Shown piece by piece: positions 18,001 to 21,000 of a stretch of DNA of 56,616 nt (the first letter of the stretch is position 1; every line of letters begins with the position of its first letter). A program made the position numbers. The stretch is from Mizuhopecten yessoensis (Eukaryota). The stretch is from positions 5,540,181-5,596,796 of the forward strand of contig NW_018404492.1 of NCBI RefSeq assembly GCF_002113885.1, read 5' to 3'.

Positions 18001-21000
18001 CAAGTGTGGTCATCTGCACAGCTGATATTAATGTACGTGTCATTTTTTCAAGTATCCTTCATGGTGATCGGCCATACTGGTGGGTTGGGGAGACTTACAA
18101 GTACAAAGAAAAGGCAGAATTGGAGACTATGCTACCTACACAATATAACCTTACCTGTGAAACAGGACCAGGTATGTACTCGCTATTTCCTCAACTGTGA
18201 AACAGGACCAGGTATGTATCTACCATTTCCTCAACCCTGAAACGGTACCAGGTTTTTACTCAATATTACCCATGAAACATGACCAGGTTTGTACCTAATA
18301 TTACCTGTGGAATAGGACCAGGTTTGTACTCAATATTACCTGTGAAAAGGACCAGGTTTGTATCCCAATATTACCTGTGAAAAGGACCAGGTTTGTACCC
18401 AATATTACCTGTGAAACAGGACCAGGTTTGAACTCCAATATCATCTTTGGAATGGGACCAGGTATGAACTGAATATTTTCTTACCTGTGAAACAGGACCA
18501 GGTAAGTGCTGAATGCATTATATCATCTGATCTTTGAAAAAACAGGACCTGGTGTTTAATGAATAGAATTACTTTACCATTGCAACAGGACTTCGTATGT
18601 CCAATGTCCATAATAAACTTCCAATGTCTGTGAAACAGGACAAGGTATGTAGTCAATACTGTATTCTTTCTGCTGGAGGAAACGGGAATATGGATAGTGC
18701 TTGATTTTCAGTTCCTGATTGTTGGGAATCTTGTGTTACTTAAAACTGTTCCTTTGTTGTATTGTATTCATCGATTTATTGTGGCTGGAAAATAACACTT
18801 ACAAAAATGACTATCAAAACAGTACATATTTTTAAGGATTCACACTTCGATCAACTTTTGATTGTTACAAAATGTGCAATATAACTACATGCAAAATTTG
18901 AAAAGTTATCGTCATATTTACTGTTGTGTAAGCACATCGATACTGTGATACAAATCATTTATACAAGGAATGGAATTATTTCTTATGAAATATTCAGTAT
19001 ATGTACAAGTTTAAATAAATATATAACAATATTGACAGTGTCATGATGCAATCTCCGATAAATTATCAGATTACTTGTTATTTTTCACGAGATGCCAGAA
19101 ATGTTTCTAAAAAGTTTTAAAATACCTTGGAGGGTTTCCTTATTCCAGAAACTTATCTGGAAATATATACTAAACTGGAAATTGCAATATGCTAATAGTC
19201 AACTACACCTATTCAAGTCCCGTGGTTTAATACTTGTGTCTTTTAGGAAGTCCTTCAGGCCATGCCATGGTGACATCAGCAGTGTTCTTTGTCCTTGTAA
19301 AGGGCATATTGGATTCCAGACAGAAACACCAAAGGTAAATGGTTGCTACCTAAGCTTGTCTTGCTGTGCTGGTGTTAGATTGGTCATCAGTCATATTCGA
19401 AATTGATAAATTCTAGTTGGTTAACGAGTGGTAACTATAGTTTTTGGATAAAAGAAGGACGACATTTACTACCAATTTGTAGTATCTATTCTTTAAATTT
19501 TTACAATTGGTCACCTTATACTGTGAAGATTTAAATTTTGACAGCAGTACTCTTTCGTGAAATGATTTGTTGCAGTGTGAATTTTGCTTTGTTTCAGCAG
19601 AATCATGCAGGCTGCTTTATGGACAAGTTTTGCTGCAATTATTCTGGCAGTGGATATTTCACGTGTTTTCATAGCGACTCATTTCCCCCATCAAGTCATT
19701 ATGGGTACTTTGATAGGTAGGTTCCGTTAGTTTCATTCATGGACCGAGTGCTGAATTTTTGAATAACAAAGCCAATATTTAATAATCTTGTCACACATGA
19801 ATCAAAAGTGTTGGAGCTTGGCAGTAATAGAATAACAAGCTTTAAACTTTTTCAAAGATAACTACTAATTATGATTCCTATTGAACCGTTAATTGGCATG
19901 TGTCATGTGGGATATGCCTGATTAGACTGTAATGCGATTATTGGTTTTAAGTAGAGAGTTTTAATAACGTGGTTTAAATCTGTTTTCAACATTTTACAGG
20001 AATAGGGATAGGAGCAATCATTAATATGGATGTTGTTGCTAGCCTCCGTAGCAAACATTACCTGCTGGGAACAATGGTGGCTGTGGGAGGATGCATGCTG
20101 ACGTACTATGCCCTGTTGTCGCTAGGTTACGACCCCTTGTGGTCTATTCCAATGGCCCACAAGTGGTGTGCTACATCCACCTGGGTCCACCCCGACACCT
20201 CGCTGTTCTTTGCCGTCATCAGGGACATCTCCTGTCTGGCAGGTTGGTACAGAGTGTAAATCCAAGGTGTTAATTTATATTTGTGGCAACAGTAATCATT
20301 TTCTTAATGTAAATGGATTATAATGTGTGTGATTCTCACAGACGGCAAGGATGCATGTTCTGACTTGTAACAAATTTGTCCATTCCTTAAATGTCATTTT
20401 TTTTTTATTGCAGGATTTGGATTCAGTGTATACATCTTTGAAAAAAAATCATCTGAAGAAAAACCAGGTTCAGTTCACATCATGTCAAAAATTTTGCAGA
20501 TTGTTTCAAGCTTGTGTGTGACTCTGATGTCGGAAAATATCAAGCTGCCTAGGGACTCTGATGCAATATTTTATGGAGCAGCTTTTATCAAATTCTTCTT
20601 GATGGTGTTGGTCCTTGTGGTCCAAATACCTGCCGTTTTTGACAGATGTGCTTCAAAATCCAACTGCACCAAGAAGAAGAACTCTTGAGGAAAACATCTT
20701 AAAATTGTCAGAAATGGCAAATTTCCATTTGTTTAAATATTTTATGTATGTTTTAGTCGTAGCAAATATTGACTTTCAAATCACTTTGACATGTATTGGA
20801 TACTGTTAATGTTGGTGTTCATTTTTTTCACAATTTTTGGGTTCTTTTTATTTACTGTGGCAGTGATATACAGAGCTTAAATATTGTGACAAGTTTTACA
20901 CAATGCCAGTGAATTAATGGCATTTACTACTTTTTTCATTGTATTTATTTATTGTTGTTGGTTTGTATACATGGTAAATGTGGATTTTGCTTTACGGGAC

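What the first reader, a model, noticed from the sequence alone, without database searches (positions are those of the whole stretch)
18151..18658. Second, independent exon-end + donor tandem array in G6Pase intron 3
Seen: ~13 degenerate copies of the final ~21 nt of exon 3 (encoding TCETGP, next to the catalytic PSGH motif) plus GT and ~14 nt of intron. The array starts at the real exon and extends only into the downstream intron. The unit is unrelated in sequence to the RGP1 satellite but has the same polarity relative to transcription, and it contains a small hairpin (CCTGT-GAA-ACAGG). Most middle copies have a weakened donor (GTTTGT). Inference: selection may have eroded the competing donors, and two cases within 10 kb suggest a recurrent process.
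Basis: partly seen in the sequence, partly recalled or inferred. Interest (0 to 1): 0.68.

Follow-up and report, generated by a model that had tools for sequence, protein, structure and literature searches.

The report
Splice-donor minisatellite in scallop G6Pase intron
The end of one exon of a scallop glucose-6-phosphatase gene, together with its splice signal, has been copied about a dozen times head to tail into the following intron; this is a real but already known kind of repeat, and it shows no sign that selection disabled the extra splice signals.

Summary
The window is Mizuhopecten yessoensis DNA. Exon 3 of a glucose-6-phosphatase gene (18053-18171, + strand) ends in ...TCETGPG, and its end plus donor is repeated 12 more times up to 18653, with a possible 13th remnant. 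The unit is better described as the last 31 nt of the exon plus the first 9 nt of the intron (40 bp). A younger 35-bp subfamily forms the middle of the array.

The selection inference is not supported:
- GT is kept in 13 of 13 copies.
- Substitutions at +3..+6 are no denser than elsewhere (12/48 against 113/432 cells).
- The "weakened" +3 T travels with a 5-nt deletion in 6 of 6 units, so it is one inherited event.
- One pseudo-donor (18502) is a perfect CAG|GTAAGT.
- The neighbouring RGP1 array keeps 27 identical donors.

The array belongs to a kind described in human genes: minisatellites whose first monomer spans an exon-intron boundary (F7, IFI6, CBS, LMNB2, PDGF; PMC1557585). It is most likely a neutral, decaying slippage product. 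It is tolerated because the first donor is used and because any other donor would bring in a stop at 18198. Whether junction-spanning arrays recur unusually often in this genome could not be tested.

The parts
18053..18171 (+). Exon 3 of the glucose-6-phosphatase-like gene. It encodes (x)ILHGDRPYWWVGETYKYKEKAELETMLPTQYNLTCETGP plus the first base of a Gly codon.
   Evidence: Acceptor ...tttttcaag|T read. Translation. 100% identity to P0001.
18172..19246 (+). Intron 3 (1075 nt). The array fills its first ~480-530 nt.
   Evidence: Donor CAG|GTATGT at 18172. Acceptor cttttag|GA at 19246/19247. P0001 residues are contiguous across the junction.
18141..18180 (+). Founder copy C0: the last 31 nt of exon 3 plus the first 9 nt of intron 3 (GTATGTACT). 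It contains the authentic donor.
   Evidence: Alignment in the 31+9 register.
18181..18260 (+). Copies C1 and C2, 40-bp form. They are 80% and 68% identical to C0. C1 has a donor identical to the authentic one.
18252..18461 (+). The 35-bp subfamily (units U3-U8 in the donor-first register). All six units carry the 5-nt deletion and T at +3. Neighbouring copies are up to 97% alike.
18471..18510 (+). Copy C9, 40-bp form. It keeps the exon-like CTTACCTGTGAAACAGGACCAG and has a perfect-consensus pseudo-donor CAG|GTAAGT, with GT at 18502.
   Evidence: 9 of 9 matches, and the lowest duplex energy of the 13 sites.
18511..18653 (+). Copies C10-C12. These are old, degenerate units of 43-50 nt, 52-72% identical to C0. 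They retain ACAGGAC, three further bases and then GT.
18654..18700 (+). Possible last remnant copy (CAATAC...GGAAACGGGAATATGG) without a GT at the donor position.
   Evidence: Read by eye. Not tested statistically.
18198..18200 (+). In-frame TGA, 27 nt past the authentic junction and upstream of every pseudo-donor.
   Evidence: Translation GMYSLFPQL*.
19247..19334 (+). Exon 4. It begins (G)SPSGHAMVTSAV..., which holds the phosphatase signature histidine.
27638..27817 (-). Context: the RGP1 (RAB6A-GEF complex partner 2-like) exon whose last 52 nt found the neighbouring 85-bp satellite.
   Evidence: 100% identity to P0006. Sequence.
24068..27637 (-). Context: the 85-bp satellite (52 nt of exon end plus 33 nt of intron) that fills most of the RGP1 intron. 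It includes an assembly gap of 500 N at 26840-27339, which was left untouched.

Best explanation
This is a decaying intronic minisatellite. It arose when a 40-bp segment straddling the exon 3 / intron 3 junction of the scallop glucose-6-phosphatase gene was duplicated in tandem. The segment was the last 31 nt of the exon plus the first 9 nt of the intron. The duplication was then amplified by replication slippage or unequal exchange.

The most upstream copy stays joined to the rest of the exon, and its donor is the one used. All other copies are therefore intron by definition. This geometry explains why the array starts at the exon and runs only downstream.

A variant unit that had acquired a 5-nt deletion and an A>T change at +3 was later amplified to six copies, forming the 35-bp middle block. 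The 3' copies are the oldest and most decayed.

The copies probably do nothing. They are tolerated for two reasons. First, the spliceosome takes the first suitable donor after the exon, as shown experimentally for the human F7 intron 7 minisatellite. Second, any transcript spliced at a pseudo-donor carries the stop at 18198 and would be expected to be degraded.

Shown here: the anatomy, the homology to the exon, the subfamily structure, the retained GTs, the stop codon, and the need for the first donor to make the conserved protein.

Inferred: the duplication mechanism, neutrality, the first-donor rule in scallop, and degradation of mis-spliced RNA.
For: - Tandem structure: TRF scores 144-332. 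The core gives 12 matches against 0.54 expected.
- Homology over the whole 40-nt register to the exon tail plus GTATGTACT. Identity to the exon copy is 52-94%.
- The exon is ancestral, not the repeat. LTCETGPG|SPSGH is present in 5 of 5 homologues from several scallops and relatives.
- The first donor is required. P0001 runs without a break from 18173 to 19246, and any later donor includes TGA at 18198.
- Subfamily history: +3 T and the 5-nt deletion co-occur in 6/6 units against 0/6 (p = 0.002). Neighbour identity peaks at 94-97% in the middle and falls to 45-60% at the 3' end.
- No donor-directed decay. Pseudo-donors as strong as or stronger than the real one persist.
- An internal natural control: the RGP1 array carries 27 donors identical to the authentic one, yet the annotated protein uses the first.
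- Precedent: the Introduction and Discussion of PMC1557585 list human minisatellites whose first monomer spans an exon-intron boundary. They report that in F7 only the most upstream of 5-9 identical donors is used.
Against: - No RNA data were available, so use of the first donor rests on the database protein model and on protein conservation.
- The core GAAACAGGACCAG|GT (-13..+2) is clearly less variable than the rest. The figures are 15/178 against 78/270 cells. It is the least variable of 40 circular 15-column windows with all copies, and 2 of 40 windows are as low or lower with C1-C9 only. A purely neutral array does not predict this. Part of it may come from how degenerate copies were recognised.
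- In the F7 experiments, pseudo-sites with a perfect consensus did shift some splicing towards themselves. The perfect site at 18502 may therefore not be silent.
- Two such arrays in adjacent genes is more than a naive uniform model expects (0.0026).
Confidence: 0.72

Rival explanations
1. One reading: the array arose as above, but purifying selection then weakened the competing pseudo-donors, visible as GTTTGT in the middle copies, so that the authentic donor wins.
For: - Six of 12 pseudo-donors carry T at +3.
- Eight of 12 match the consensus less well than the authentic site.
- In C1-C9 the raw cell rate at +3..+6 is 10/36 against 40/292 elsewhere (p = 0.05).
- A weak-donor unit is the one that was amplified.
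Against: - GT is invariant in 13/13 copies, and CAG|GT is kept in 10/13.
- Over all copies there is no excess: 25% against 26% with gaps counted, or against 20% with gaps skipped. Parsimony gives 2.0 against 1.92 events per column.
- The six +3 T are one inherited change linked to the deletion.
- The change costs only one consensus match and about 0.8 kcal/mol in the U1 duplex proxy.
- C1 equals the authentic donor and C9 exceeds it.
- RGP1 keeps 27 identical donors, and its +3..+6 variation is 8.1%, the same as its array mean of 8.1%.
Confidence: 0.1
2. The pseudo-donors are kept by selection because they do something. They could act as a platform of U1 snRNP binding sites in the intron that helps define exon 3 or protects the transcript. 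Alternatively they could act as decoy donors that divert a regulated share of G6Pase transcripts into stop-containing, degraded RNAs.
For: - The core -13..+2, which includes CAG|GT, is the least variable part of the unit, and GT is present in 13/13 copies.
- A perfect consensus donor arose or persisted at 18502.
- Every pseudo-donor gives a premature stop.
- PMC1557585 reports that consensus-perfect pseudo-sites can be used.
Against: - The array is small, and 13 related copies are not independent.
- Degenerate copies C10-C12 were recognised by this very core, which biases the count.
- The 3' copies are plainly decaying (45-60% neighbour identity).
- No conserved secondary structure was found.
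- There are no expression or cross-species data.
Confidence: 0.1
3. A junction-targeted mutational process: some feature of 5' splice sites in this genome makes tandem duplication more likely there, so the G6Pase and RGP1 arrays are two products of one recurrent mechanism. Candidate features are a minisatellite-core-like G-rich donor motif, small hairpins, or transcription- or splicing-coupled damage.
For: - Two unrelated arrays, both spanning a donor, lie in adjacent convergent genes.
- The naive joint chance is 0.0026.
- Both units are mostly exon sequence (31 of 40 nt and 52 of 85 nt).
- The G6Pase unit holds a small palindrome.
Against: - The estimate is post hoc, because the window was picked out for this feature.
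- The third gene-internal array, in the Kelch gene at 50512-51162, does not include its exon end.
- The hairpin is weak and is lost in most copies.
- Tolerance alone predicts that surviving junction arrays sit at donors rather than at acceptors or inside exons.
Confidence: 0.06
4. Artefact or chance: an assembly error, a transposable-element insertion, or a chance resemblance to the exon end.
For: None specific. The RGP1 array does contain an assembly gap.
Against: - The G6Pase array holds no N, and its copies differ from one another, so it is not a collapsed or inflated assembly of identical units.
- The homology is to a deeply conserved coding motif.
- 0 of 100 shuffles reach the match count.
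- No terminal repeats or other copies are seen in the window.
Confidence: 0.02

Closest known systems
Human F7 intron 7 37-bp VNTR minisatellite (Borensztajn et al. 2006, PMC1557585; abstract, Introduction and Discussion read)
   Same: It is a tandem array whose first monomer spans the exon-intron boundary, so the authentic donor is followed by reiterated pseudo-donors. The unit size is similar (37 against 35-40 bp) and so is the copy number (5-9 against 13). Only the first donor gives the normal mRNA.
   Different: The F7 unit is 4 nt of exon plus 33 nt of intron, and its pseudo-sites are identical to the authentic donor. The scallop unit is 31 nt of exon plus 9 nt of intron, and its copies have diverged (52-94% identity to the exon copy). 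They include one site better than the authentic donor. In F7, use of the first site was shown by experiment. Here it is inferred.
Other human junction-spanning minisatellites named in the Introduction of PMC1557585: IFI6 (6-16) intron 2, CBS intron 13, LMNB2, PDGF intron 4. I read only that paper's summary of them; the original papers were not read.
   Same: The architecture is the same, with the donor reiterated in the following intron. According to that text, LMNB2 (100 bp x 10-15) and PDGF (81 bp x 16-18) use only the authentic donor. This matches what the annotated proteins imply for the scallop G6Pase and RGP1 genes. The RGP1 array (85 bp, more than 37 copies) resembles these longer ones.
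   Different: In IFI6 and CBS, two pseudo-sites are also used. Nothing is known about pseudo-site use in the scallop. The human examples are scattered single genes, whereas here two lie in neighbouring genes of a mollusc.
Intron creation or intron sliding by tandem duplication of a segment containing AGGT (PMC3265369, PMC4974935, PMC2891723; titles and abstract openings seen in a search listing only)
   Same: A tandem duplication supplies extra copies of splice-site sequence, and the duplicated material is removed as intron.
   Different: In those cases the duplication creates a new intron or moves a boundary. Here an existing intron is simply lengthened and the coding sequence is unchanged.
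Recursive splice sites (juxtaposed acceptor and donor inside long introns; recalled, no paper read)
   Same: A CAG|GT motif is reiterated inside an intron.
   Different: The scallop units have the purine-rich GAAACAGGACCAG before the GT, not a pyrimidine tract, and the intron is only about 1.1 kb. This is not a member.

Membership tests
Junction-spanning intronic minisatellite (F7 IVS7 type) | Head-to-tail tandem array with a unit of roughly 10-100 bp | tested here: met
   TRF periods 35 and 40 (also 70 and 104), scores 144-332. 13 units were aligned.
Junction-spanning intronic minisatellite (F7 IVS7 type) | The first monomer contains the end of a genuine exon and its authentic donor | tested here: met
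   Exon 3 is 100% identical to the named scallop G6Pase protein and ends at 18171. Copy C0 spans 18141-18180.
Junction-spanning intronic minisatellite (F7 IVS7 type) | The donor sequence is reiterated in the downstream copies as pseudo-sites | tested here: met
   GT is present at the homologous position in 13 of 13 copies, and CAG|GT in 10 of 13.
Junction-spanning intronic minisatellite (F7 IVS7 type) | The normal mRNA uses the most upstream donor | tested here: inconclusive
   The database protein and 5 of 5 homologues read TCETGPG-SPSGH across the first donor. All other donors bring in TGA at 18198. No transcript reads could be examined.
Junction-spanning intronic minisatellite (F7 IVS7 type) | Copy-number polymorphism between alleles (VNTR behaviour) | not testable with these tools
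   Only one assembly of one individual was in hand.
Recursive splice site | A pyrimidine tract and AG immediately upstream of the GT, within a long intron | tested here: not met
   The upstream sequence is the purine-rich GAAACAGGACCAG, and the intron is 1075 nt.
Transposon-borne satellite-like array (common in bivalves; search listing) | The unit is unrelated to the host gene, has dispersed copies, and is flanked by element termini | tested here: not met
   The unit is homologous to the host exon over its whole length. There is no other copy in the window. Genome-wide dispersal could not be checked.

The most novel reading that the evidence does not exclude
Junction-spanning minisatellites are not rare accidents in this scallop. 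Under this reading they are produced, or retained, preferentially at 5' splice sites, as suggested by two unrelated examples in adjacent convergent genes. The unusually well-kept core GAAACAGGACCAG|GT of the G6Pase copies would then mean that the pseudo-donors are maintained as intronic U1-binding or decoy sites, which tune how much productive G6Pase mRNA is made. The perfect-consensus site at 18502 would be a live alternative donor feeding nonsense-mediated decay.
Probability: 0.1. Interest if true: 0.6.

Novelty: new member of a known kind. Interest (0 to 1): 0.3.

Why it matters
If it is ordinary, as I think, its value is as a clean natural experiment. One scallop locus offers 12 diverged pseudo-donors, one of them stronger than the real site. 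A neighbouring gene offers 26 pseudo-donors identical to its real site. Together they would test whether the "first donor wins" rule established for human F7 also holds in a mollusc.

The intronic copies also act as dated fossils of the exon's earlier sequence.

If such arrays turned out to be enriched at donors genome-wide, that would point to a junction-specific mutational or tolerance bias. Such a bias would be relevant to how introns grow.

Tried and rejected
- Pfam on the 39-aa exon peptide gave no family. The exon is too short on its own, so identity came from the protein search instead.
- My first attempt to segment the RGP1 array used too strict an anchor and caught only 8 units. I replaced it with a 3-mismatch anchor that gave 38. 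One of the 38 is a shifted, spurious anchor (CTT|CATTTC).
- The hairpin idea did not hold up. The single-unit folds are not beyond shuffles: 10-65 of 200 shuffles fold as well for most units, and 3-4 of 200 for the bare 21-mer and for C9 as DNA. The whole array has z = +0.34.
- The recursive splice site and transposon-borne satellite readings were rejected on anatomy.
- The C. elegans minisatellite paper (PMC4039745, passages read) concerns intronic motifs, not junction-spanning arrays.
- Literature searches found no report of such arrays in bivalves. Among the 15 papers listed (of 59 found), only one non-bivalve paper used the phrase "exon-intron boundary".
- The 2-mismatch hit at 17001 on the minus strand was set aside as chance.
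- The listing of cluster members on P0001 did not complete. Accession numbers and the other isoform therefore stayed unchecked.
Searches were made exon by exon. Exons were mapped by local tblastn of database proteins against the window.
- Not used or not available: no scallop or other eukaryotic genome collection was available. The closed collections (metagenome contigs, viral contigs) and the bacterial genome contigs were not used. No supplements were consulted.
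Full report
**What the window is.** The window has 36.8% G+C and one run of 500 N at 26840-27339. I left that run untouched. The translation of 18054-18173 is 100% identical to a protein that NCBI names glucose-6-phosphatase 3-like isoform X2 of Mizuhopecten yessoensis (P0001, 358 aa). It is 73-85% identical to four other proteins, of which two are named (Pecten maximus, Ylistrum balloti) and two unnamed (5 proteins in all). A second exon, 27638-27814 on the minus strand, is 100% identical to the RAB6A-GEF complex partner protein 2-like (RGP1) of the same species (23 proteins). 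The window is therefore Yesso scallop DNA, not human.

I made these searches exon by exon. Exons were placed by local tblastn of the returned database proteins against the window.

**Gene structure.**
- The G6Pase gene lies on the + strand. Coding pieces are at about 14714-14791, 15222-15386, 18053-18171 (exon 3), 19247-19334 (exon 4), 19599-19718 and 19999-20685.
- Exon 3 starts after ...tttttcaag and ends ...ACA GGA CCA G|GTATGT.
- Exon 4 starts after cttttag with GA AGT CCT TCA GGC CAT, so the protein reads TCETGPG-SPSGH.
- That motif is present in 5 of 5 homologues.
- RGP1 lies on the minus strand from 33046 to 23739. The two genes are convergent.

**The array.**
- TRF reports overlapping rows of period 40 (18155-18261), 35 (18238-18477), 70 and 104, with scores 144-332.
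- The 16-nt core occurs 10 times between 18158 and 18646 at 3 mismatches or fewer. Two weak hits lie elsewhere. The expectation is 0.54 per window, and 0 of 100 shuffles reach 12.
- I placed 13 homologous donor positions, with GT at 18172, 18212, 18252, 18287, 18322, 18356, 18391, 18426, 18462, 18502, 18552, 18595 and 18645.
- The copies align over a full 40-column register made of exon positions -31..-1 plus intron positions +1..+9.
It matches exon positions -31 to -26, and copies C1, C2 and C9 keep the 40-nt length exactly.
- The founder segment was therefore 31 nt of exon plus GTATGTACT, not 21 nt of exon plus about 16 nt of intron.
- After 18653 there may be one more remnant, to about 18700. 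I only judged this by eye.

**History of the copies.**
- Identity to the exon copy is 80% and 68% for C1 and C2, 80-94% for C3-C8, 85% for C9, and 52-72% for C10-C12.
- Neighbour identity peaks at 94-97% for C5-C7 and falls to 45-60% at the 3' end.
- Read in the donor-first register, six adjacent units (18252-18461) share both a 5-nt deletion and T at +3. None of the six other intronic units has either (6/0/0/6, Fisher p = 0.002).
- The "weakened donor" of the middle copies is therefore one mutation in one founder unit that was then amplified.

**Are the donors eroded?**
- GT is invariant in 13 of 13 copies, -1 G is kept in 12 of 13, and CAG|GT in 10 of 13.
- Differences from the exon copy at +3..+6 are 12 of 48 cells (25%). 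Elsewhere they are 113 of 432 (26%) with gaps counted, or 81 of 400 (20%) with gaps skipped (p = 0.45).
- Parsimony on a neighbour-joining tree gives 2.0 against 1.92 events per column. Of 40 circular four-column windows, 18 (cells) or 20 (events) are at least as variable.
- Restricting to C1-C9 gives 10/36 against 40/292 (p = 0.05). Six of the ten cells are the single amplified +3 T.
- I scored donor strength by matches to CAG|GTAAGT and by duplex energy with a recalled 11-nt U1 5' motif. This is a proxy, not a trained splice model.
  - Authentic donor: 8/9 matches, -9.7 kcal/mol.
  - C1: 8/9, -10.2.
  - GTTTGT copies: 7/9, -8.9 to -9.4.
  - C9 (18502): 9/9, -13.2.
  - C12: 7/9, -8.4.
  - Only C2, C7, C8, C10 and C11 are clearly weaker.
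- So one pseudo-donor equals the authentic donor and one exceeds it.
- The neighbouring RGP1 array is a stronger control. Of 38 anchors in the assembled part, 27 have the authentic TAG|GTAAGG and 36 keep GT. Variation at +3..+6 is 12/148 (8.1%), equal to the array mean of 254/3145 (8.1%). Of 85 four-column windows, 41 are at least as variable.

**What is not even.** The part from -13 to +2 (GAAACAGGACCAG|GT) is the least variable stretch. It shows 15/178 differing cells against 78/270 elsewhere. It ranks lowest of 40 circular windows with all copies, and 2 of 40 windows are as low or lower with C1-C9 only. This is the opposite of erosion. It may reflect recent amplification, the way I recognised the degenerate copies C10-C12 (by ACAGGAC), or some constraint. 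With 13 related copies I cannot separate these.

**Consequences for the mRNA.** Reading on from the authentic junction gives GMYSLFPQL and then TGA at 18198-18200, upstream of the first pseudo-donor at 18212. Every pseudo-donor would therefore give a premature stop. The extensions would be 40 to 473 nt long, and 330 nt for the perfect site. The same holds for RGP1. The open frame that continues from its exon ends at 27560, so the stop that follows lies before the first pseudo-donor near 27552.

**Structure.**
- The palindrome CCTGT-GAA-ACAGG is there. It gives -3.6 kcal/mol as DNA.
- It is intact at only three places: 18154, 18408 and 18484.
- Unit folds are mostly within the range of shuffles. 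The 520-nt array as RNA has z = +0.34.
- I see no support for a structural role. A role of the palindrome in the original slippage cannot be tested.

**Polarity.** Any tandem duplication that straddles a donor leaves the upstream-most copy attached to the exon. If that donor is used, the rest is intron. "Starts at the exon and extends only downstream" follows from geometry plus preservation of the reading frame. It is not an independent clue to mechanism. By inference, the mirror case at acceptors would more often disrupt the mRNA and be lost.

**Comparison with what is known.**
- A literature search led to Borensztajn et al. 2006 (PMC1557585). I read its abstract, Introduction and Discussion.
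- Its examples are in human F7 (37 bp, 5-9 copies), IFI6/6-16, CBS, LMNB2 (100 bp) and PDGF (81 bp).
- It shows by mutagenesis that in F7 only the most upstream functional donor is used.
- Only pseudo-sites perfectly matching the consensus drew some splicing to themselves. That makes the site at 18502 the one to watch.
- Searches for bivalve reports and for related wording found none for molluscs. Papers on intron gain by tandem duplication were seen only as a listing.

**Recurrence.**
- Within this window, TRF lists seven arrays with a period of 40 bp or more. Two span a donor: G6Pase and RGP1.
- A third lies in an intron of a Kelch-repeat gene on the minus strand (exons found by Pfam). It begins about 70 nt after the donor at 51233|51232 and does not contain the exon end.
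- The rest are not next to any exon I could recognise.
- Placing one unit at random in each gene gives 0.040 x 0.064 = 0.0026 for both to span a donor. The window was singled out for this feature, so the figure is only a prompt for a genome-wide count, which I could not run.

**Verdict.** The selection inference is not supported. The thing is a new member, in a mollusc, of a known kind of repeat. It is most likely neutral and decaying.

**Unchecked.** Transcript evidence, orthologous introns, polymorphism, genome-wide frequency, cluster members of P0001 (one search did not complete) and paper supplements.

Noticed in passing
24068-27637 (- strand), N run 26840-27339: An 85-bp satellite fills most of an RGP1 intron. 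Its unit is the last 52 nt of the exon (27638-27817) plus 33 nt of intron. Of 38 anchors in the assembled part, 27 carry donors identical to the authentic TAG|GTAAGG. The annotated protein still splices from the first donor to the last exon near 23975.
   Followed up: partly
18150-18157 (+), and the same motif in copy C9 at 18480-18487: Exon 3 contains CTTACCTG, the exact complement of a consensus donor (CAGGTAAG). In predicted folds it pairs with the donor of the same unit, forming 8 bp in C9 with the perfect pseudo-donor. The energies are not clearly beyond shuffles: 4 of 200 as DNA and 12 of 200 as RNA.
   Followed up: partly
18147-18149 versus 18187-18189, 18227-18229, 18477-18479: The exon has AAC (Asn) where intronic copies C1, C2 and C9 have TTC, TTC and TTT. 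Related scallop proteins have Tyr or His at this residue. The copies may preserve a T from an older Tyr codon, which would date the array to before the change to Asn.
   Followed up: partly
46887-54838 (- strand); array 50512-51162: A Kelch-repeat gene has at least six exon-like ORFs. Its 134-bp x 4.8 tandem array starts about 70 nt downstream of a donor (51233|51232) but does not include the exon end. It serves as an ordinary intronic array for contrast.
   Followed up: partly
40679-41443 (+): An intronless ORF matches the linker histone H1/H5 family (E = 1.8e-21). The lysine-rich tandem repeats that TRF lists at 41212-41386 lie in its tail.
   Followed up: no
38662-38845: A 42-bp x 4.4 tandem array, 94% matching, whose unit ends in ...CCCTCAG. 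No recognisable exon lies beside it. Pfam hits on ORFs through it are repeat artefacts with no matched stretch.
   Followed up: no
3275-3417 and 5337-5457: Two short arrays (56 bp x 2.6 and 49 bp x 2.4) have units that look related to each other by eye. They are probably two copies of a dispersed element with an internal repeat.
   Followed up: no
20248-20406 (+): The database protein (isoform X2) aligns to the last coding block 19999-20685 with a gap, while two homologues align on either side of about 20248-20406. This suggests an optional intron inside the last exon.
   Followed up: no
56211-56610: A 145-bp x 2.7 array runs up to the end of the window, preceded by (CGTC)n at 56165-56197.
   Followed up: no
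12861-13238 (+): A 126-aa ORF has a weak EMC6 match (E = 0.0036, 18.2 bits, below the 23.3-bit cut-off), about 1.5 kb upstream of the G6Pase start.
   Followed up: no
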